Below are positions 9,745 through 64,000 of a stretch of DNA of 64,000 nt, one piece after another. The stretch lies in the NCBI RefSeq assembly GCF_044704955.1, contig NC_091979.1:271870001-271934000 (forward strand), in the 5' to 3' direction. Numbering within the stretch: the first letter of the stretch is position 1; the number at the start of each line of letters is the position of its first letter. The DNA comes from Pristiophorus japonicus. Lineage: Eukaryota. Under the pieces are notes generated by a model, which had not been told where the DNA came from, did no database searches, and was given only the letters and a program-made list of their open reading frames with translations. The translations under genes and the position numbers were made by a program.

Positions 9745-11334
9745 GGGCCCAAGTTTCCACATGATTTGCGCCTGATTTTTAGGAGCAACTGGTGGAGAAC
9801 GGACTATCTTAGAAATCGCAATTCTCCACATTTTTTTTCCTGCAGTTCTAGTCAGGTAGAACAGTTCCACTTTGGAACAGAATTTTTTCTTCAAAAGGGG
9901 GCGTGTCCGGCCACTGACGCCTGATTTCAAAGTTTCCACAGTGAAAACATACTCCAAACTAACTTACAATAGAGCAAGTGAAGATTTTTGTAGAACTGAA
10001 AAAACCTGTTCTACACATTAAAAAATCAGGCGCAGGTTCCATATTAGGCGTAGGGAACGAGGGGGGGAGGGAAGGGAAGTCATTAAATTCTACAATAAAT
10101 CCTTAGTTATACTTATACAAATATTATACAAATAAATCCAACCTGAATAAACATTTATAAGCAAAGAAAAGATTAAATAAACCATGTTCCTAGCTGTGTG
10201 AAAGTTCTTCAGGCAGGCCTTTAGGAAGCGGTTTGCCGTCTGGACCGAAGGCTGAACGGGCCGGGCCCAAGATTTCGGGCAGGGCCCGTCTGCAGCACCA
10301 GAGGTAGGTGGCGTTGGGTCGGGTCGGGGAGAGAGGTTCGGTTCGGGTCAGCGGGCGAGGGAGGGAGAGAGGGGGAGGGAGGGAGGGAGGGAGAGAGGGA
10401 GGGAGAGAGGGAGGGGAGAGAGTGAGAGAGGGAGGGGGAGAGAGGGAGGTCAGGTCGGGGAGAGTGAGGTCAGGTCGGGGAGGGGGAGGTCAGTTCAGAT
10501 CCAGGCCGGGGGCGAGAGTAGAGTCGGGTCGAGTCGGGTGGGAGCGGGAGCGGCAGACGCAGACGGGTCGAGTCGGGTCCGGTCCGGTCGGGGGGGGCGG
10601 GGGGCAGAAGCAGGAGCGGCGGGGAAGCAGGAGCGGCAGCAACAGGCGGGTCGAGTCGGGTCCAGTCCGGTCGGTGGGGGGCGGGGGCGGAAGCAGGAGC
10701 GGCGGGGAAGCAGGAGCGGCAGCAACAGGCGGGTCGAGTCGGGTCCAGTCCGGTCGGTGGGGGGCGGGGGCGGAAGCAGGAGCGGCGGGGAAGCAGGAGC
10801 GGCAGCAACAGGCGGGTCGAGTCGGGTCCGGTCCGGTCGGGTGGGGGGGCAGAAGCAGGAGCGGCAGCAACAGGCGGGTCGAGTCGGGTCCGGTCCGGTC
10901 GGGTGGGGGGGCAGAAGCAGGAGCGGCAGCAACAGGCGGGTCGAGTCGGGTCCGGTCCGGTCGGCGGGGGGGAAAAGCGGGAGTCGGCAGGAAGCAGGAG
11001 CTGGCCATGGGAGGAGCCTTATTCACGCAGCCCCAGTGAGGCCATTCGGCCAGGGCTAGGGGCTGCGTGCTTCGGGCCCCTTCCACACAGTTTCGGGCGC
11101 CTGGAGCTACTGCACTTGCGTGCCCACTGTAGCGCGCATGTGCAGAGCTCCCGGCACTGTTTTCGGCGCAGGGTCCTAGCTCCGGCCCCTACAGCTCCTG
11201 CTGCGCCATGCCACGGGCCAGAAGACCTGCAAGGAGGTGGAGAATACGGAGGGTTTTTTTAGGCGCACTTTCTGGTGCGAAAAACGGGCGCCCAGCTCGG
11301 AGGGGCGCCCGTTTTTTATCGTGTGGAAACTTGG
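9745..11334. mobile_element. Harbinger-type MITE (GGGCCCAAGTTTCCAC family), copy 1
   Basis: Left TIR GGGCCCAAGTTTCCAC. Right TIR GTGGAAACTTGG lacks the last 4 nt. ATT flanks both sides. Closely similar to the inverted copy at 52926-54381. Confidence 0.85.
10310..10995 (+). repeat. GC/G-rich minisatellite inside MITE
   Basis: A GGGA/GAGA tract followed by about 8 variable 55-75 bp units of type GGGTCGAGTCGGGTCCGGTCCGGTCG(G)nCAGAAGCAGGAGCGGCAGCAACAGGC. Confidence 0.9.
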
Positions 11335-40808: not shown

Positions 40809-43169
40809 CTATAGAAGATAGTAGGAGGAGGTAAGTGAGCAATGTGGGTAGGGAGGTGGTATTGAATGTAAAGGAACACAAAAAAATAGGGCAATGAGCT
40901 ATTTAAAAAGGTGAGAAATCAACCATACATGCAATACAGAATTACAGGCAAAGTTAAGATTAAAACCACTAAGATATGAAGTAGAAACAAGAATAGGTAG
41001 CACAATGGGTGAGTGCACTCAGAACCAAGTTTGATTCCAATCCAGATTAATGGCAAGAAAATCTTCTGTTGGTTTCAATATTTCTACATGAAAAATGAAT
41101 TTGGGCATGCTCAATTCAGTTCCTAATGCATGTGGGTCCAAAGCACAAAATTGCCCCTGTTTGGCACTAAAATAGCAATTTAATTCAGAAATAGTAGCAT
41201 ATATAGTAAATGGAAATGTCATGTTGTTGCTCCTGAAATTAGTGCGACAGCATATTCTTGAAGTATAATAGAGGGAGCATAATTTTGCATTTAAGAACAT
41301 AAGAATTAGGAGCAGGAGTAGGCAATTTGGCCCCTCGAGCCTGCTCCGCCCTTTAATAAGATCATGGCTGATCTGATCTTGGGCCTAGCTCCACTTCCTT
41401 GCCTGCTCCCCATAACTCTTCATTCCCTTATCGCTCAAAAACCAGTCTACCGCCATCTTAAATATATTCAATGATCCACCTCCACGGCTCTTTGGGGCAG
41501 AGAATTTGACAGCTTTATGACCCTCAGAGAAGAAATTCCTCCTCCTCTCAGTTCTAAATGGGCGACCCCTTATTCTGAAACTATGCCCCCAAGTTCTAGA
41601 TTCCCCCACGAGTGGAAACATCCTTTCTGCATCCACCTTGTCGTGACCCCTCAGTATCTTATATGTTTCAATAAGATCACTTCTCATTCTTCTAAACTCC
41701 AATGAGTATAGGCCCAACCTACTCAACCTATCTTCATCTCCGGAATCAACATAGTGAACCTTCTCTGAACTGCCTCCAATCCTTAAATAAGGAGACCAAA
41801 ACTGTACGCAGTAGTCTAGGTATGGTCTCACCAATACCCTGTACAGCTGTAGCAGGACTTCTCTGCTTTTATACTTCCTCCCCCTTGCAATAAAGGCCAA
41901 CATTCCATTTGCCTTCCTCATTACTTCCTGTACTTGCATACTAACTTTTTGTGTTTCATGCACAAGGATCCCCAGGTCCCTCTGTACTGCAGCATTTTGT
42001 AATTTCTCTCCATTTAAATAATAATTTGCTTTTTTATTTTTCCTGCCAAAATGGATAACTTCACACTTTCCCACATTATATCCCATCTGCCAAATGTTTG
42101 CCCACTCACTTAGCCTGTCTATATCTGTTTGCAGATTTCTTGTATCCTCCTCACAACTTGCTTTCCTACTCATCTTTGTATCATCAGCAAACTTGGCTAC
42201 ATTACACTCGGTCCCTTTATCCATGTCATTAATATAGATTGTAAGAAGTTAGGGCCCAGCACCGATCCCTGTGTCGCCCCACTCGTTACAGTTTGCCAAC
42301 CTGAAAATGACCCATTTATCCCGATTCTCTGTTTTCTGTTAGTTAGTCAATTCTCTATCCATGCTAATATATTACCCCTGACCCCGTGAGTTCTGATCTT
42401 GTGCAGTAACCTTTTATGTGGCACCTTCTCGAAACCCTTCTGGAAGCCCAAATACACCACATCCACTGGTTCCCCCTTATCCACCTTGCTCATTACATCC
42501 TGAAAGAACTCCAGCAAATTTGCCAAACATGATTTCCCTTTCATAAAACCATGCTGACTCTGCTTGACTGAGTTATGCTTTTCCAAATGTCCTGCTACTG
42601 CTTCCTTAATAATGGACTCTAGCATTTTCCCAATGATAGATGTTAGGTTAATTGGTCGATAATTTCCTGCTTTCTGTCTGTCTCCTTTTTAAAATAGGGG
42701 CGTTATATTTGCGGTTTTCGAATCAGCCGGGACCTCTCCAGAATCCAGGGAATTTTGGTTGTTTACAACCAATGCATCCATACATAGAAACATACATAGA
42801 AAATAGGTGCAGGAGTAGGCCATTCGGCTCTTCGAGCCTGCACCACCATTCAATAAGATCATGGTTGATCATTCTCTTAGTACCCTTTTCCTGCTTTCTC
42901 TCCATACCCCTTGATCCCTTTAGCCGTAAGGGCCATATCTAACTCCCTCTTGAATATATCCAATGAACTGGCATCTCTGCGGCAGGGAATTCTACAGGTT
43001 AACAACTCTCTGAGTGAAGAAGTTTCTCCTCATCTCAGTCCTAAATGGCCTACCCCTTATCCTAAGATTGTGTCCGCTGGTTCTGGACTTTCTCAACATC
43101 GGGAACATTCTTCCCGCATCTAACCTGTCCTGTCCCGTCAGAATCTTATACGTTTCTATGAGATCTCCT

Positions 43170-44967
43170 TAGAAGATGAAAAGGGGGATTTAATAATGGG
43201 AAATGTGGAAACGGCTGAGACCTTAAACAATTATTTTGCTTCCGTCTTCACAGTGGAAGACACAAAAACCATGCCAAAAATTGCTGGTCATAGGAATGTG
43301 GGAAGGGAGGACCTTGAGATGATCACTATCACTAGGGAGGTAGTGCTGGACAGACTAATGGGACTGAAGGTAGACAAGTCCCCTGGTCCTGATGAAATGC
43401 ATCCCAGGGTATTAAAAGAGATGGCGGAAGTTATAGCAGATGCATTTGTTATAATCTACCAAAATTCTCTAGACTCTGGGGAGGTACCAGCGGATTGGAG
43501 AGCAGCTAATGTAACGCCTGTGTTTAAAAAAGGGGGCAGGCAAAAGGCAGGTAACTATAGGCCGGTTAGTTTAACATCTGTAGTGGGGAAAATGCTTGAA
43601 ACTATCATTAAGGAAGAAATAGCGGGACATCTGGATAGGAATAGTGCAATCAAGCAGACGCAGCATGGATTCATGAAAGGGAAATCATGTTTAACTAATT
43701 TACTGGAATTCTTTGAGGATACAACGAGCATGGTGGATAGAGGTGTACCGATGGATGTGGTGTATTTAGATTTCCAAAAGGCATTCGATAAGGTGCCACA
43801 CAAAAGGTTACTGCAGAAGATAAAGGTACACGGAGTCAGAGGAAATGAATTAGCATGGATAGAGAATTGGCTGGCGAACAGAAAGCAGAGAGTCGGGATA
43901 AATGGGTCCTTTTCCGGTTGGAAATCAGTGGTTAGTGGTGTGCCACAGGAATCAGTACTGGGACCACAACTGTTTACAATATACATAGATGACCTAGAAG
44001 AGGGGACAGAGTGTAGTGCAACAAAATTTGCAGATGACACTAAGATTAGTGGGAAAGCGGGTTGTGTAGAGGACTCAGAGAGACTGCAAGGAGATTTGGA
44101 TAGGTTAAGCGAATGGGCTCAGGTTTGGCAGATGGAATACAATGTCGGAAAGTGTGAGGTCATCCACCTTGGGAAAAAAAACAGTAAAAGGGAATATTAT
44201 TTGAATGGGGAGAAATTACAACATGCTGTGGTGCAGAGGGACCTGGGGGTCCTTGTGCATGAATCCCAAAAGGTTAGTTTGCAGGTGCAGCAGGTAATCA
44301 GGAAGGCAAATGGAATGTTGGCCTTCATTGTGAAAGGGATGGAGTACAAAAGCAGGGAGGTGTTGCTGCAACTGTATAAGGTATTGGTGAGGCCGCACCT
44401 GGAGTACTGCGTGCAGTTTTGGTCACCTTACTTAAGGAAGGATATACTAGCTTTGGAAGGGGTACAGAGACGATTCACTAGGCTGATTCCAGAAATGAGG
44501 GGGTTACCTTATGATGATAGATTGAGTAGACTGGGTCTTTACTTGTTGGAGTTCAGAAGGATGAGGGGTGATCTTATAGAAACATTTAAAATCATGAAAG
44601 GGATAGACAAGATAGAGGCAGAGAGGTTGTTTCCATTGGTGGGGGAGACTAGAACTAGGGGGCACAGCCTCAAAATACGGAGGAGCCAATTTAAAATCGA
44701 GTTGAGAAAGAATTTCTTCTCCCAGAGGGTTGTGAATCTGTGGAATTCTCTGCCCAAGGAAGCAGTTGAGGCTGGCTCATTGAATGTTTTCAAGTCAAAG
44801 ATAGATAGATTTTTAAGCAATAAGGGAATTAAGGGTTACGGGGAGAGGGCGGGTAAGTGGAGCTGAGTCCACGACCAGATCAGCCATGATCTTATTGAAT
44901 GGCGGAGCAGGCTCGAGGGGCTAGATGGCCTACTCCTGTTCCTAATTCTTATGTTCTTATGTTCTTA
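43170..44967 (+). mobile_element. Young 5'-truncated CR1 LINE (C)
   Basis: Uninterrupted RT ORF, 3' UTR and (TTCTTATG)n tail. Confidence 0.93.
43196..44866 (+). CDS. CR1 ORF2 reverse transcriptase portion (556 aa, no endonuclease)
   Basis: [38 protein letters not shown], and no stops. Confidence 0.85.
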   Translation: MGNVETAETLNNYFASVFTVEDTKTMPKIAGHRNVGREDLEMITITREVVLDRLMGLKVDKSPGPDEMHPRVLKEMAEVIADAFVIIYQNSLDSGEVPADWRAANVTPVFKKGGRQKAGNYRPVSLTSVVGKMLETIIKEEIAGHLDRNSAIKQTQHGFMKGKSCLTNLLEFFEDTTSMVDRGVPMDVVYLDFQKAFDKVPHKRLLQKIKVHGVRGNELAWIENWLANRKQRVGINGSFSGWKSVVSGVPQESVLGPQLFTIYIDDLEEGTECSATKFADDTKISGKAGCVEDSERLQGDLDRLSEWAQVWQMEYNVGKCEVIHLGKKNSKREYYLNGEKLQHAVVQRDLGVLVHESQKVSLQVQQVIRKANGMLAFIVKGMEYKSREVLLQLYKVLVRPHLEYCVQFWSPYLRKDILALEGVQRRFTRLIPEMRGLPYDDRLSRLGLYLLEFRRMRGDLIETFKIMKGIDKIEAERLFPLVGETRTRGHSLKIRRSQFKIELRKNFFSQRVVNLWNSLPKEAVEAGSLNVFKSKIDRFLSNKGIKGYGERAGKWS

Positions 44968-52925: not shown

Positions 52926-54381
52926 GGGCCCAAGTTTCCACACGCGCCTAGAACGGCGCAGTCCCGACCTGGACGCCTGTTTCTCGCGCCACAAAGTGCA
53001 CCTAAAAAAATCCTCAGTATTCTCCACCTACTTGCAGGTCCTCTGGCCCTCGGCGCAGCCAGCACGAGCTGTGGGGGGGGGCGGAGCCAGGTCCCTGCAC
53101 TGAAAACAGTGCCGAGACCTCTGCACATGCGCGCTACAGTGGGCACGCAAGTGCAGTAGCTCCAGGCGCCGAACTGTGTGGGAGGGGCCCGAAGCACGCA
53201 GCCCCTAGCCCTGGCTGAATGGCCTCACTGGGGCTGCGTGAATAAGGCTCTTCCCACGGCCAGCTCCTGCTCCCCCCCACCCCCCCGACCAGTCCCGACA
53301 CTCGCTCCCCGCCCCCCCCCGCCTCCGGACCAGACCCGACACCCGCGCCCCCCCCCCCGACTGACCCGACTCGACCCGCGCTCCTGTTCCCGCTCCCCGA
53401 CTCCCCGACTGGACCCGACCCGACCCGCGCTCCCGCCCCCCGACCCGACCCCCCCCCCCCACTGGACCCGACCCGACTCCCGCTCCCGGACTGGATCCAA
53501 CNNNNNNNNNNNNNNNNNNNNNNNNNNNNNNNNNNNNNNNNNNNNNNNNNNNNNNNNNNNNNNNNNNNNNNNNNNNNNNNNNNNNNNNNNNNNNNNNNNN
53601 NNNNNNNNNNNNNNNNNNNNNNNNNNNNNNNNNNNNNNNNNNNNNNNNNNNNNNNNNNNNNNNNNNNNNNNNNNNNNNNNNNNNNNNNNNNNNNNNNNNN
53701 NNNNNNNNNNNNNNNNNNNNNNNNNTCTCCCCCCCCCCTCCCTCTCTCTCTCCCTCCCTCTCTCTCTCCCTCCGCCCCTCTCCCCCTCTCCCTCTCTCTC
53801 TCGCCCCCAACCCGACCCAACCCAACGCCACGTACCTGTAAATCTGGTGCTGGGGACGGGCCCTGCCCGAAGTCTCGGGCCGGCCCGTTCAGCCTTCGGT
53901 CCCGAAAGGCCTGCCTGAAGCACTTTCACACAGATAGGAAGATGGTTTATTTAATCTTTTCTTTGCTTATAAATGTTTATTCAGGTTGGATTTATTTGTA
54001 TAATATTTGTAGAAGTGTAAATAAGGATTTATTATAGAATTTAATGACTTCCCTTCCCCCCCACCTCGTTCTGGACGCCTAATTTGTAACCTGCGCCTGA
54101 TTTTTTAATGTGTAGAACAGGTTTTTTCAGTTCTACAAAAATCTTCACTTGCTCCATTCTACTTTAGTTTGGAGTACGTTTTCACTGTGGAAACTTTGAA
54201 ATCAGGCGTCAGTGGCTGGACACGCCCCCTTTTGAAGAAAAAATTCTGTTCCAAAGTAGAACTGTTCTATCTGACTGGAACTGCAGAAAAAAAAATGTGG
54301 AGAATTGCGATTTCTAAGATAGTCCGTTCTCCACCAGTTGCTCCTAAAAATCAGGCGCAAATCACGTGGAAACTTGGGCCC
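52926..54381. mobile_element. Harbinger-type MITE (GGGCCCAAGTTTCCAC family), copy 2, inverted relative to copy 1
   Basis: Perfect 16-bp TIRs, TSD ATT (52923-52925, 54382-54384), internal C-rich minisatellite. Confidence 0.92.
53502..53725. other. Assembly gap (224 N)
   Basis: Run of N within the MITE minisatellite. Confidence 1.
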
Positions 54382-58488: not shown

Positions 58489-59300
58489 GGTTATATATGT
58501 AAACCTGTAAAAACATTGTGTAGCCACCAGAGGGCTCGTCCCCTGGAGTCCCAAGGATCCCACAATCCCTTGGGAACACCTGTACTTAAGGAGGCCTCAC
58601 TGGCTGGAGAGGCACTCTGGACACCTGCAATAAAAGACTAAGGTCACACTTTACTTTGAGCTCACAGTATCTAGTCAGACACTTTATTCATACACAACAA
58701 CTGGCGACGAGATACAGATGATGAACCCAACGATGCAGAGAACAGTGGGCAGCCTGGAGAAATTTTCGGAGGGAGATGATTGGGAAACCTTCATGGAGCG
58801 ACTCGACCAATACTTCGTGGCCAACGAGCTGGAAGGAGAAGCGAACGCTGCCAAATGAAGGGCGATTCTCCTCACCATTTGCGGGGCACCAATGTAAGGC
58901 CTCATGAAAAATCTGCTTGCCCCAGCGAAATCGTGCGATGATTTGTGCACACTGGTCCGAGAGCATCTGAACCCGAAGGAAAGCCTTCTAATTGCGAGGT
59001 ACCGGTTCTACACCGACAAAAGGTCTGATGGCCAGGAAGTGGCGAGCTATGTCGATGAGCTAAGACGCCTTGCAGGACATTGCGAATTGGAAGGACATTT
59101 GGAGTACATGCTCAGGGACTTCTTTGTACTTGGCATTGGCCATGAAGTGATACTTCGCAAACTTTTGACTGTAGAGAGCCCAACCTTGAGTAAAGCCATA
59201 GCGATAGCCCAGGCGTTCATTGCCACCAGTGACAATACCAAGCAAATCTCTCAGCACACGAGTGCTGCTACTAGTACTGTGAACAAAGTGATATTGTTTT
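58489..59300 (+). mobile_element. Gypsy element 4 (same family as element 2): 5' LTR and gag, interrupted
   Basis: LTR 58489-58699 is homologous to the element 2 LTRs. PBS TGGCGACGAG at 58702-58711. Gag starts at ATG 58733 and has stops. The remainder is not in the window. Confidence 0.9.
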
Positions 59301-60014
59301 AACAAAAGAACATAAGAATTGGGAACAGGAGTAGGCCATCTAGCCCCTCGAGCCTGCTCCGCCATTCAACAAGATCATGGCTGATCTGGCCGAGGACTCA
59401 GCTCCACTTATCCGCCCGCTCCCCATAACCCTTAATTCCCTTATTGGTTAAAAATCTATCTATCTGTGACTTGAATACATTCAATGAGCTAGCCTCAACT
59501 GCTTCCTTGGGCAGAGAATTCCACAGATTCACAACCCTCTGGGAGAAGAAATTCATTCTCAACTCGGTTTTAAATTGGCTCCCCCGTATTTTGAGGTTGT
59601 GCCCCCTAGTTTTAGTCTCCCCGACCAGTGGAAACAATCTCTCTGCCTCTAGCTTGTCTATCCCTTTCATTATTTTAAATGTTTCTACAAGATCCCCCTT
59701 CATCCTTCTGAACTCCAACGAGTAAAGACCCAGTCTACTCAATCTATCATCATAAGGTAACCCCCTCATCTCCGGAATCAGCCTAGTGAATTGTCTCTGT
59801 ACCCCCTCCAAAGCTAGTATATCCTTCCTTAAGTAAGGTGACCAAAACTGCACGCAGTACTCTAGGTGCGGCCTCACCAATACCCTATACAGTTGCAGAA
59901 GGACCTCCCTGCTTTTGTACTCCATCCCTCTCGAAATGAAGGCCAACATTCTATTCGCCTTCCTGATTACCTGCTGCACCTGCAAACTAACTTTTTGGGA
60001 TTCATGCACAAGGA
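59301..60014 (-). mobile_element. Young CR1 LINE 3' part (same subfamily as C), interrupted by Tx1
   Basis: Open ORF 59398-60009, closely similar to 44250-44950. Confidence 0.92.
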
Positions 60015-62182
60015 GTTCCCAGGAGGCTGGTCTGTCGGTCGCCTTCCTATCCCTCGACCAAGAGAAGGCGTTCGACAGGGTGGATCACGACTATCTGCTC
60101 GGAACTCTGCGCGCTTTCGGGTTCGGGACGCATTTCGTCGCCCGGATCCGACTTTTGTACGCCGCCGCGGAGTGTCTGATTAAGGTTAACGGGTCCTTGA
60201 CGGCGCCCCTTCGCTTTAGGAGAGGGGTGCGCCAGGGATGCCCCATGTCCGGCCAGTTATACGCCGTTTGCGTGGAGCCTTTCCTGCGCCTCTTGCGGAC
60301 GAGGTTGACGGGACTGGCTCTGCAAGGGCCGGGCGTGGAGGTCGTCCTCTCGGCTTACGCCGATGACGTGCTCCTCGCGGTAGAGGATCCCGCTGACCTG
60401 CGGAGGATGCGTGAGTGCCAGGAGATTTACTCGGCCGCGTCCTCCGCCAGGATCAACTGGGAGAAATGTTCCGGACTCCTGGTGGGTCAGTGGCGGGTGG
60501 ACTCCCTGCCGGAGGAGCTCAGGCCTTTTGCCTGGAGCACGACCCATCTCCTCTATCTGGGAGTCTACCTTAGCCCCGACGAGGGAACCTGGCCGGCGAA
60601 CTGGCAGGAGCTGGAGGCCAAGGTCGCCGCTCGCCTAGGGCGCTGGACAGGACTGCTCCGAGTGCTGTCCTACAGGGGTCGAGCGCTAGTCATAAACCAG
60701 CTGGTGGCCGCAATGCTGTGGTACCGGCTGGTCACTTTGACCCCTCCCCCTGCGTTTGTCGCCAAGATACAGAAGAAGCTGGTGGACTTCTTCTGGAACA
60801 ACAGGAAGCACTGGGTCTCTGCCGCGGTTTTGAGTCTCCCGCTTGAGGAGGGCGGTCAGTCGTTGGTGTGCGTCAGCGCCCAGCTCGCGACTTTCCGTCT
60901 TCAGACCCTGCAGAGATACCTTTACGTCGAGCCCCCTCCTAGGTGGTGTGCTCTGGCGAGGTATTTCTTCCGCCAGCAGCTCGACCTCAATTATGACACG
61001 CAGCTCCTGTTTGTGAACTTGGGGGGTGCCAGGACCGCCCTCCGGGAGCTGCCTGTCTTTTACAGGGAACTCATCAGGGTCTGGAACAAAGTCTCCACCA
61101 AGCGCAGCTCTCCACCGGCTGGAGTGGCGGCCGTCCTGCAGGAGCCGCTGCTCGGGAATCCGTACCTCCACGGCCGAGGCTTCATGTGGCGGTCGGAAGA
61201 GAGGGCTGTGGCTGGTGAGGTGACCAGGGTCAGGGACCTGCTCGATGGCGGAGGAGCGGGCTGGATGGCGCCAGTCACGCTGGCGCGGCGCCTAAATTCT
61301 GCCAACGTCCGCCACGCGGCCGATGCCATCGAGTCGCTAAAAACAGCTCTGGGCCCTGACTCGGTTAGGTGTATCGAGGAGGCTCAAGCACGTGGGGAGA
61401 TCCCGTCCGAACTGACCCCCGTCCGGACGGAATTCCTCATCGGCGCCAAACCCCGGAACCTCCCTCGGGGGCCGGCGCCTCACAACTTGAGCCGCCTCGG
61501 GGAAATCCCCTCCGTGCCTTTCAGTTCCGCGCGGAGGGGTTTCCTGTACGGGCTGCTCCTGCACACCCTCAACTTTGCCATCCTCGCCGGCCGTCCGGAC
61601 ACGCCATGGCGTACCATCTTGCCGTCCGGAGGAGGCGGGGGTCCCCGATGGAGGGCACTCTACGCAGGGGTCCTCCCACTATTCATCGGGGACTTGGCCT
61701 GGAGGGTGGTGCACGGAGCAGTGCCGTGCAATAAATTTTTAAGCCGGTTCACGGACTCCCAGGCCGCCTGCAATTTCTGCGGTCTGGAGGAGTCCGTGTT
61801 CCATGTTTTTATTGAGTGTACGAGGTTGCAGCCCCTGTTCCATTATTTGAAGGGGCTGCTCCTGAAATTCTGGCTGCACTTCAGTCCCACACTCCTGATC
61901 TTTGGGCACCCTGAGCGGAGGGGAGCGGGTAGGTCCGAGGGCCTCCTCGTAGGACTGCTCCTGGGCACGGCCAAGGGTGCCATCAGCCGGTCCAGGCAGC
62001 GGGCGGTCGAGGGGGTCGTTCAACCTGACTGCCTGCCTCTCTTCCGCTCTTACATCCGGTCCAGGGTGTCCTTGGAGATGGAGCACGCGGTGTCCACCGG
62101 TACGCTCGCGGCCTTCCGCGAGAGGTGGGCACCGGAGGGACTGGAGTGCATCATCACGCCCGGCAACCAAATTTTAATTTGA
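60015..62182 (+). CDS. Tx1-like ORF2, C-terminal ~720 aa (partial RT + zinc finger), uninterrupted
   Basis: Part of ORF 59915-62182. The first approximately 33 codons of that ORF are antisense CR1 and not part of the element. Confidence 0.8.
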
Positions 62183-62410
62183 TTTTACGTTTTAAAGTTT
62201 AATTTGTTTTAATTGCCTGTGCTTTTAGTGTCCCCCTCTCCTTTTATAGGGGGCACTGGAAAAAGGAAAAATTTGATTTTAGTGCCCCAAAAAAAAAAAC
62301 CACAAAAAAAAATAAATAAAAAAGGGGCCTTGTAAATGTCTTGTGTGTGTCATCCAGGTCGGGTGGCACGGATACATGTTTTATGTTTTTGCAGTTTAAC
62401 TCAAAAGAGT
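60015..62410 (+). mobile_element. Tx1-clade (L1 group) non-LTR retrotransposon, 5' truncated, copy 1
   Basis: GC-rich. RT motifs LDQEKAFDRV, GVRQGCPMSG, YADD, YLGV; C-terminal CNFC..H..C zinc finger; 3' UTR. Flanked by the direct repeat TTCATGCACAAGGA (60001-60014, 62411-62424). Confidence 0.9.
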
Positions 62411-62424
62411 TTCATGCACAAGGA

Positions 62425-64000
62425 GTTCCCAGGAGGCTGGTCTGTCGGTCGCCTTCCTATCCCTCGACCAAGAGAAGGCGTTCGACAGGGTGGATCACGA
62501 CTATCTGCTCGGAACTCTGCGCGCTTTCGGGTTCGGGACGCATTTCGTCGCCCGGATCCGACTTTTGTACGCCGCCGCGGAGTGTCTGATTAAGGTTAAC
62601 GGGTCCTTGACGGCGCCCCTTCGCTTTAGGAGAGGGGTGCGCCAGGGATGCCCCATGTCCGGCCAGTTATACGCCGTTTGCGTGGAGCCTTTCCTGCGCC
62701 TCTTGCGGACGAGGTTGACGGGACTGGCTCTGCAAGGGCCGGGCGTGGAGGTCGTCCTCTCGGCTTACGCCGATGACGTGCTCCTCACGGTAGAGGATCC
62801 CGCTGACCTGCGGAGGATGCGTGAGTGCCAGGAGATTTACTCGGCCGCGTCCTCCGCCAGGATCAACTGGGAGAAATGTTCCGGACTCCTGGTGGGTCAG
62901 TGGCGGGTGGACTCCCTGCCGGAGGAGCTCAGGCCTTTTGCCTGGAGCACGACCCATCTCCTCTATCTGGGAGTCTACCTTAGCCCCGACGAGGAAGCCT
63001 GGCCGGCGAACTGGCAGGAGCTGGAGGCCAAGGTCGCCGCTCGCCTAGGGCGCTGGACAGGACTGCTCCGAGTGCTGTCCTACAGGGGTCGAGCGCTAGT
63101 CATAAACCAGCTGGTGGCCGCAATGCTGTGGTACCGGCTGGTCACTTTGACCCCTCCCCCTGCGTTTGTCGCCAAGATACAGAAGAAGCTGGTGGACTTC
63201 TTCTGGAACAACAGGAAGCACTGGGTCTCTGTCGCGGTCTTGAGTCTCCCGCTTGAGGAGGGCGGTCAGTCGTTGGTGTGCGTCAGCGCCCAGCTCGCGA
63301 CTTTCCGTCTTCAGACCCTGCAGAGATACCTTTACGTCGAGCCCCCTCCTAGGTGGTGTGCTCTGGCGAGGTATTTCTTCCGCCAGCAGCTCGACCTCAA
63401 TTATGACACGCAGCTCCTGTTTGTGAACTTGGGGGGTGCCAGGACCGCCCTCCGGGAGCTGCCTGTCTTTTACAGGGAACTCATCAGGGTCTGGAACAAA
63501 GTCTCCACCAAGCGCAGCTCTCCACCGGCTGGAGTGGCGGCCGTCCTGCAGGAGCCGCTGCTCGGGAATCCGTACCTCCACGGCCGAGGTTTTATGTGGC
63601 GGTCGGAAGAGAGGGCTGTGGCTGGTGAGGTGACCAGGGTCAGGGACCTGCTCGATGGCGGAGGAGCGGGCTGGATGGCGCCAGTCACGCTGGCGCGGCG
63701 CCTAAATTCTGCCAACGTCCGCCGCGCGGCCGATGCCATCGAGTCGCTAAAAACAGCTCTGGGCCCTGACTCCGTTAGGTGTATCGAGGAGGCTCAAGCA
63801 CGTGGGGAGATCCCGTCCGAACTGACCCCCGTCCGGACGGAATTCCTCATCGGCGCCAAACCCCGGAACCTCCCTCGGGGGCCGGCGCCTCACAACTTGA
63901 GCCGCCTCGGGGAAATCCCCTCCGTGCCTTTCAGTTCCGCGCGGAGGGGTTTCCTGTACGGGCTGCTCCTGCACACCCTCAACTTTGCCATCCTCGCCGG
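62425..64000 (+). mobile_element. Tx1-clade element copy 2 (tandem, runs off window)
   Basis: Same 5' breakpoint as copy 1, period 2410 bp, about 9 substitutions seen in about 1580 bp. Confidence 0.92.

What the first reader, a model, noticed from the sequence alone, without database searches (positions are those of the whole stretch)
60001..62424. Tx1-clade LINE inserted in a CR1 LINE: candidate retrotransposon that targets another retrotransposon
Seen: the element is bounded by a 14-bp direct repeat, TTCATGCACAAGGA, which is CR1 ORF2 sequence (the reverse complement occurs in intact CR1 C at about 44250-44263). The site is not the A-rich TT|AAAA type, and the element's 3' junction (...AACTCAAAAGAGT) has no terminal poly(A). 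Known: many Tx1-clade elements are sequence-specific (for example Xenopus Tx1L into Tx1D DNA transposons, Keno into U2 snRNA genes). Inference: this family may specifically target a conserved motif of the abundant shark CR1, an element-on-element parasitism with a very large supply of safe sites. Only one locus is visible here.
Basis: partly seen in the sequence, partly recalled or inferred. Interest (0 to 1): 0.75.

Follow-up and report, generated by a model that had tools for sequence, protein, structure and literature searches.

The report
Tx1 LINE that targets CR1 LINEs
A young jumping gene of the Tx1 group sits backwards at a 14-base motif in the coding sequence of the far more abundant CR1 jumping gene, and other copies carry the same motif at their ends, so the family likely targets CR1, a probably new landing site for a group already known to aim at other mobile elements.

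Summary
The 14-mer TTCATGCACAAGGA is at 60001 and 62411 and is antisense CR1 ORF2 sequence, and the 3' junction has no poly(A). A second copy of the Tx1 fragment follows, with the same 5' truncation and 9 differences in 1590 bases, so this is the left end of a head-to-tail array. The protein groups with Xenopus Tx1L (48% identity). Public contigs gave other copies. Of 14 shown joints at the element's 3' end, 12 run through 11-15 bases of the same motif and then into an element truncated at one of 11 different starts. The other 2 share only TTCA, and one of them spells a second antisense CR1 motif. The motif's background rate is 3e-5 per position. This supports sequence-specific insertion into CR1. 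Limits: the 12 joints come from one run, only 27 of 73 joint rows were shown, and CR1 resuming on the right was never seen. Tx1 targeting of DNA transposons and LTR elements is already published. I found no report of a CR1 target.

The parts
59301..60014 (-). 3' part of a young CR1 LINE (ORF2 C-terminus, open to its stop at 59398-59400, plus 3' UTR); the target element
   Evidence: 94.3% to CR1 at 44250-44963; open frame; the CR1 at 43124-44866 matches bird, turtle and ray RT proteins at 43-61% among named hits
60001..60014 (+). Left copy of the target motif TTCATGCACAAGGA (antisense of CR1 ORF2 codons around VLVHE, after the RT domain); inferred target-site duplication
60015..62410 (+). Tx1L-lineage LINE copy 1, 5'-truncated inside the RT domain; no endonuclease or ORF1
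   Evidence: upstream element letters (X5)
60017..62182 (+). Open ORF2 fragment, 721 aa: RT (aa 8-183, PF00078) and C-terminal zinc finger (aa 559-602, PF13966, below the curated cut-off)
62183..62410 (+). AT-rich 3' UTR with internal A-tracts, ending ...AAAAGAGT without poly(A); the last base or two could belong to the target
62411..62424 (+). Second copy of the target motif, between Tx1 copy 1 and copy 2
   Evidence: the same kind of junction in other copies
62425..64000 (+). Tx1 copy 2, same 5' truncation point, 99.4% identical to copy 1, runs off the window
59365..59378 (+). Unoccupied one-mismatch copy of the candidate second target motif (TTCAATAAGATCAT) in the CR1 3' UTR
   Evidence: (table 5c)
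44250..44263 (-). Unoccupied copy of the main motif in the longer CR1 (43124-44963, +); model of the empty site

Best explanation
This is a young, 5'-truncated Tx1L-lineage LINE lying antisense in CR1 ORF2 at a 14-base motif, with a second copy behind it, and it likely belongs to a family whose endonuclease would cut this CR1 motif sequence-specifically. Shown: the anatomy, the phylogenetic position, and the same motif between an element 3' end (or flank) and differently truncated elements in other copies. Inferred mechanism: the APE endonuclease of full-length members nicks the CR1 sense strand after ...GTGCATGAA (or one base earlier). Reverse transcription primes there. The second cut falls 11-15 bases away and duplicates the motif. 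Each insertion leaves an intact motif behind the element's GAGT end, which resembles the GTGT or GGGA upstream of the motif in CR1, so the site is reused and head-to-tail arrays grow. A weaker second site in the CR1 3' UTR shares TTCA...A.A. Untested: RNA that reads through into the motif would pair with the nicked strand and could replace a poly(A) tail in priming. The identical truncation of copies 1 and 2 most likely reflects a local duplication through the 14-base repeat, or retrotransposition of a read-through copy, and not two independent insertions.
For: (1) The CR1 breaks exactly at the end of the motif that also follows the element's 3' end. (2) In one search, 27 of 73 joint rows were shown and 14 start at the element's 3' end. 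Twelve start at 62421-62425 (11-15 motif bases), two at 62414 (TTCA only), none at 62405-62413. (3) The 12 land at 10 different listed places (11 different starts), and 6 carry 1-3 extra letters that do not match the element upstream, as expected of independent 5' junctions. (4) The first 11 motif bases occur 4 times in 120,028 strand positions of the first 60 kb, each time in antisense CR1. (5) One TTCA joint reads TTCAATAAGATCAT (depth 87). Its 4 exact window matches are all antisense CR1 3' UTR, and only 4 of 730 TTCA sites have this continuation. (6) In a second sample (X17), a diverged subfamily's loose end also runs AAAAAGAG-TTTCAT (5 contigs). A rough depth balance suggests 66-86% of 3'-end depth continues across the motif in X17. 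(7) The protein falls in a clade with Tx1L, SH-aLRT 100, whose endonuclease nicks almost only its target in vitro (PMC1950540 passages).
Against: CR1 resuming to the right of a final motif copy was not seen in the window or in any shown row. No loose-end row at 62410 or 62424 was among the 24 shown (560 hidden). All 12 main-motif joints come from one run (X2), which may be the assembly's own sample, and they could sit in a few arrays. Shorter sides are 22-28 letters at 85% likeness, which the tool flags as less reliable, and one landing point (62318) is in an A-tract. For table 5c rows the left side may be CR1 flank instead of element end. The depth balance is weak: contig depth is flat and summed, a plain CR1 variant can align over 25 columns of the junction, and in X2 the balance gives 0.58 with an assumed edge ramp and negative values without it. 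The endonuclease is absent from this copy and was not tested.
Confidence: 0.75

Rival explanations
1. The family has only a short preference (TTCA-like) plus a tendency to re-insert at its own 3' junction. A few founder insertions fell in CR1 because CR1 is abundant, and large arrays multiply their duplicated sites.
For: CR1 covers 21% of the first 60 kb. The junctions seen are array-type or of unknown left side, and come from one run. Two different flanks share mainly TTCA. The window itself is the left end of an array.
Against: A diverged subfamily in another sample also continues TTTCAT, and most X17 3'-end depth appears to cross the motif (weak). Under a TTCA-only rule a given flank is the main motif about 4 times in 730 and the second motif 4 times in 730, yet both identified flanks are conserved antisense CR1 motifs.
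Confidence: 0.15
2. The motif is part of the element's own RNA tail, captured once from a master copy in CR1. Head-to-tail junctions come from reverse-transcriptase template jumps, and genomic targets are otherwise not CR1-specific.
For: Variable 11-15 base lengths and extra letters also fit RNA-end template jumping (known for R2; recalled, and cited as a mechanism in PMC4494074). No poly(A) at the 3' junction.
Against: It does not explain why genuine CR1 runs into the left junction and stops exactly at the motif's end in a truncated, non-master copy, nor why a different flank is a second CR1 motif.
Confidence: 0.07
3. One chance insertion into CR1, with the second copy a local duplication or assembly artefact; no targeting.
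For: Copies 1 and 2 share one truncation point and differ by 0.57%, as haplotypes might. No contig bridging this exact junction was among those shown.
Against: Eleven other truncation starts follow the same motif in contigs built independently of the window's assembly. An artefactual copy 2 (about 15-20% by my estimate) would not remove that evidence.
Confidence: 0.03

Closest known systems
Tx1L of Xenopus laevis (target: Tx1D, a non-autonomous piggyBac-type DNA transposon)
   Same: Best named full-length relative: 48% identity over 99% of the fragment and the same SH-aLRT 100 clade. Inserts at a specific sequence inside another mobile element (PMC4494074, PMC1950540, PMC6719617 passages).
   Different: The target here is the coding sequence (and probably the 3' UTR) of an autonomous LINE, in antisense. 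The duplication is 11-15 bases. The endonuclease was not tested here.
Crocodilian Tx1-Mar, Tx1-8_Crp/Tx1-4_AMi and Tx1-9_AMi (Kojima 2015, PMC4494074)
   Same: Tx1 families that prefer other transposons: Mariner-N4 (two sites), LTR retrotransposons and Harbinger. Tandem insertion is reported for their SINEU partners. Two sites in one target element parallel the two CR1 sites here.
   Different: Old families (85-87% to consensus) with mostly DNA-transposon targets; no LINE target appears in the passages read. Figure 3 labels and supplements could not be seen.
Zepp-type self-nesting LINE clusters of green algae (recalled; also named in earlier scan notes)
   Same: LINE-into-LINE insertion that builds clusters.
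   Different: Zepp inserts into its own kind. Here the target is a different clade (CR1), and arrays seem to grow at the duplicated CR1 motif.

Membership tests
Tx1 clade, Tx1L lineage | RT/ORF2 phylogeny groups with Tx1L | tested here: met
   8-row clade (window, ray, ENA protein, sturgeon, Xenopus Tx1L, two turtles, one JGI protein), SH-aLRT 100. Quick tree only, no bootstrap, midpoint root; 30 of 226 listed homologues used.
Tx1 clade, Tx1L lineage | ORF2 with RT and C-terminal zinc finger | tested here: met
   PF00078 E 5e-23; PF13966 E 5e-5 (24.4 bits, under the 27.5 cut-off).
Tx1 clade, Tx1L lineage | N-terminal APE endonuclease and ORF1 | not testable with these tools
   Both copies are truncated inside RT and no genome is held. 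Full-length relatives carry PF03372.
Target-specific Tx1 family | One sequence type in more than 20% of flanks (criterion of PMC4494074) | tested here: inconclusive
   12 of 14 shown 3'-end joints carry the motif, but joints are a biased subset from one run and 46 of 73 rows were hidden. The result leans strongly towards met.
Target-specific Tx1 family | Target-site duplication at a fixed position in the target | tested here: inconclusive
   The motif flanks copy 1 on both sides and precedes other truncated copies at 11-15 bases, but target sequence resuming on the right was not seen.
Target-specific Tx1 family | Specificity set by the endonuclease | not testable with these tools
   Needs a nicking assay. 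The 11-residue hairpin of Tx1L occurs in 14 of 18 relatives scanned, in and outside the Tx1L clade, so it does not discriminate.
CR1 clade (target element) | RT similarity to amniote CR1 and a short tandem-repeat 3' end | tested here: met
   55 hits at E<=1e-200, mostly bird RT proteins at 43-52%, plus turtles and a manta ray (61%). No source labels them CR1. The name rests on CR1 being the dominant bird and turtle LINE (PMC4316615, abstract in listing) and on the TTCTTATG-repeat end (motif type recalled).

The most novel reading that the evidence does not exclude
A high-copy, recently active LINE family is a genome-wide hyperparasite of CR1. It cuts a conserved motif just after the CR1 RT domain, inserts antisense and breaks ORF2, primes through read-through target pairing instead of poly(A), and mobilises short tail-only derivatives to the same sites, thereby thinning the pool of active CR1 in a genome that CR1 dominates.
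Probability: 0.3. Interest if true: 0.72.

Novelty: new variant of a known kind. Interest (0 to 1): 0.5.

Why it matters
CR1-group elements make up 22-34% of shark and ray genomes (PMC13343379, passage), so a CR1 motif is an almost unlimited low-cost landing site. Insertion there would also break CR1 ORF2, which makes element-on-element control of the dominant LINE testable by counting occupied against empty sites by CR1 age. It adds a LINE coding sequence to the list of Tx1 targets and offers a young APE endonuclease with a definable target for studying how specificity switches. The general habit, Tx1 targeting other transposons, is already known, and this caps the interest.

Tried and rejected
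No whole genome was held, so the direct BLAST-and-tabulate test was not possible. A blastn of the element against the window found only the two copies. The metagenome scan with the 26-base 3' end found 0 matches. This is uninformative, because the pattern included a base at 62395 that most of the family depth does not share (table 3). Alignment scan of metagenomes: 26 pattern hits, 0 relatives. Viral contigs: 0 relatives and 0 junction matches. Prokaryote genomes gave 18 loci at 27-43% identity, probably eukaryotic contamination of MAGs; not used. Rejected: the 14-mer as internal element sequence (X5). Rejected: summed depth as copy number (tool caveat). Rejected: endonuclease hairpin length as a sign of specificity. 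Rejected: the low 'runs on unlike' share in X2 as evidence, because it is not a simple contig count. The careful tree did not finish; the quick tree is reported. Folding the 3' end gave no result I rely on (no shuffle control). Literature searches for a CR1-targeting Tx1 found none in titles or abstract starts. The library lacks most subscription papers and Repbase. Christensen 2000 was not held, and the supplements of PMC4494074, which list Tx1 targets, could not be read, so a CR1 target may already be recorded there.

Full report
Observation. The 14-mer TTCATGCACAAGGA is exact at 60001, 62411, 41955 (+) and 44250 (-). There are six matches at up to two mismatches, against 0.98 expected. Left of the element lies the 3' part of a CR1, 59301-60014 on the minus strand, 94.3% identical over 714 bases to the longer CR1 at 44250-44963. 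Its frame is open to the stop. CR1 similarity runs through the 14-mer and ends at 60014: only 3 of the next 15 bases match in three of four CR1 copies, and 5 in the fourth. The motif is the antisense of the codons around VLVHE, after the CR1 RT domain. The element's 3' end has no poly(A). The right-hand 14-mer therefore opens a second Tx1 copy with the same truncation, and CR1 does not resume in the window.

Identity. The frame 60017-62182 encodes 721 aa with RT (PF00078, E 5e-23) and a weak C-terminal zinc finger. The best near-full-coverage hits among longer proteins are Xenopus Tx1L ORF2 (48%) and a turtle protein (50%). An unnamed ENA protein reaches 67% and a stingray fragment 76%. A quick maximum-likelihood tree of 31 rows puts the window protein with the ray and ENA proteins (SH-aLRT 99), inside a clade with sturgeon, Tx1L and turtles (SH-aLRT 100; no bootstrap). 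The element is GC-rich (63%) with CpG o/e 0.83 against 0.41 in the adjacent CR1, consistent with youth. A shark host is plausible from these relatives but was not determined. The target's best named relatives are bird, turtle and ray RT proteins; the CR1 name is by that similarity.

Other copies. No genome was held and collection scans found no close relatives. A run search listed 20 runs from 9 studies. I laid 4 on 61950-62750, a stretch that spans the 3' end, the motif and the start of copy 2, at 85% likeness. In X2, 25,569 contigs were laid, so the family is large and diverse. Of 73 joint rows, 27 were shown. Eleven are internal to the element (10 skips and 1 back-joint), 2 are A-tract matches in X9, and 14 start at the element's 3' end. 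Of the 14, twelve start at 62421 (1), 62422 (3), 62423 (2), 62424 (5) and 62425 (1), that is after 11-15 bases of the motif. They land at 10 listed places (11 starts once the two rows at the stretch's edge are resolved). Six carry 1-3 extra letters that do not match the element upstream. Depths are 11-32. The other two start at 62414, after TTCA. One (X17) has unknown letters between. The other (X2, depth 87) reads TTCAATAAGATCAT, which has 4 exact matches in the window, all antisense in CR1 3' UTRs. No shown joint starts at 62405-62413, where unrelated flanks would appear. The first 11 motif bases occur 4 times in 120,028 strand positions, and TTCA 730 times. In X17, a different sample and study, a diverged subfamily's loose end runs AAAAAGAG-TTTCAT (5 contigs). 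A rough depth balance for bin 62409-62435 implies that 66-86% of 3'-end depth crosses the motif in X17. The same balance in X2 depends on an assumed edge effect (0.58 with it, negative without). An X5 contig shows the longer element upstream of the truncation point (...NIHLVRDLIH), so the motif is not internal to the element.

Limits. All 12 main-motif joints are from X2, the same sample as the best holder and possibly the assembly's source. They are other loci of one genome, may cluster in few arrays, and have short sides of 22-28 letters where given. For table 5c rows the left side could be CR1 flank instead of element end; either reading places the motif before an independently truncated element. 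No shown row displays CR1 resuming after the motif, and 560 loose-end rows were hidden. A plain CR1 variant can align over 25 columns of the junction and could inflate depth there, although in X5 and X9 that bin is fully explained by single Tx1 contigs.

Mechanism. Established for the clade: the endonuclease makes the first nick and largely sets target choice (PMC4494074, PMC1919474 passages), and Tx1L endonuclease nicks almost only its own site (PMC1950540 passages). Inferred here: a nick on the CR1 sense strand after ...GTGCATGAA or one base earlier, priming, a second cut 11-15 bases away, and antisense insertion that breaks CR1 ORF2. Both flanks identified put TGAA before the nick on the CR1 sense strand and share TTCA...A.A on the other. 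The element's last bases (GAGT) resemble the bases before the motif in CR1 copies (GTGT, GGGA), so the downstream junction would remain a target and arrays would grow, which matches the joints. Read-through RNA pairing with the primer strand would explain the missing poly(A); this is untested. The shared truncation of copies 1 and 2 is not expected from independent insertion. I favour a local duplication through the 14-base repeat or re-insertion of a read-through copy, and put an assembly artefact at about 15-20%. The 9 differences cluster in three close pairs (p = 0.002), hinting at conversion or distinct source variants.

Comparison and novelty. Tx1L targets the piggyBac-type Tx1D. Crocodilian Tx1 families prefer Mariner-N4, Harbinger, LTR retrotransposons or microsatellites (PMC4494074; abstract, passages and part 3 of 5 read; figure labels and supplements not seen). 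A retrotransposon aiming at another retrotransposon is therefore known. Nine searches (listings only) found no Tx1 family described with a CR1 target, but Repbase and most subscription papers are outside the library. Other papers seen: PMC1950540, PMC1919474, PMC6719617, PMC13343379 and PMC3747384 as passages; PMC4316615 as a listing abstract. Earlier unchecked notes of this scan describe Tx1L-like families aimed at Penelope tails and at satellites in other genomes. They suggest frequent target switching in this lineage and are not support for this locus.

Verdict. CR1-targeting family, confidence 0.75. New variant of a known kind; interest 0.5.

Noticed in passing
window 58898-64000: Nested stack: a Gypsy-type gag-like frame (58898-59302, by resemblance to other gag/pol pieces in the window) is cut by the CR1 3' end at about 59301, and the CR1 is cut by the Tx1 array.
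   Followed up: no
window 62121 (table 5c): Three joints with different left sides land at the same place, 62121, and X2 depth peaks just downstream. This may be a 5' truncation hot spot or a roughly 290-base non-autonomous derivative that uses both CR1 sites.
   Followed up: no
window 61950-62224 and 62425-62750 (runs X5 and X9): Runs labelled organisms B and C hold the element almost unchanged (0-1 differences in pieces of 139-326 bases) at low depth. Close kinship, carried-over host DNA or horizontal transfer could each explain it.
   Followed up: no
window 62182-62185 (table 7): Many contigs (78 in X2, 12 in X17) leave the reference right after the ORF2 stop, so related subfamilies have other 3' UTRs and may have other targets.
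   Followed up: no
window 60377-61363 against 62787-63773: The 9 differences between the tandem copies include three pairs within 7 bases (p = 0.002); 5 change amino acids and none makes a stop.
   Followed up: partly
proteins P0001, P0002, P0005, P0007, P0020: Sea-turtle gene models consist of the same Tx1 ORF2 pieces repeated many times, hinting at clustered or head-to-tail Tx1L-lineage copies in turtles too.
   Followed up: no
L001-L018: Several prokaryote MAGs contain Tx1/L1-like ORF2 sequences at 27-43% identity, some several per contig; probably eukaryotic contamination.
   Followed up: no
window 10256-11262 and 53134-54037: Two related GC-rich low-complexity repeat tracts; the second holds the window's only gap (224 N, 53502-53725).
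   Followed up: no
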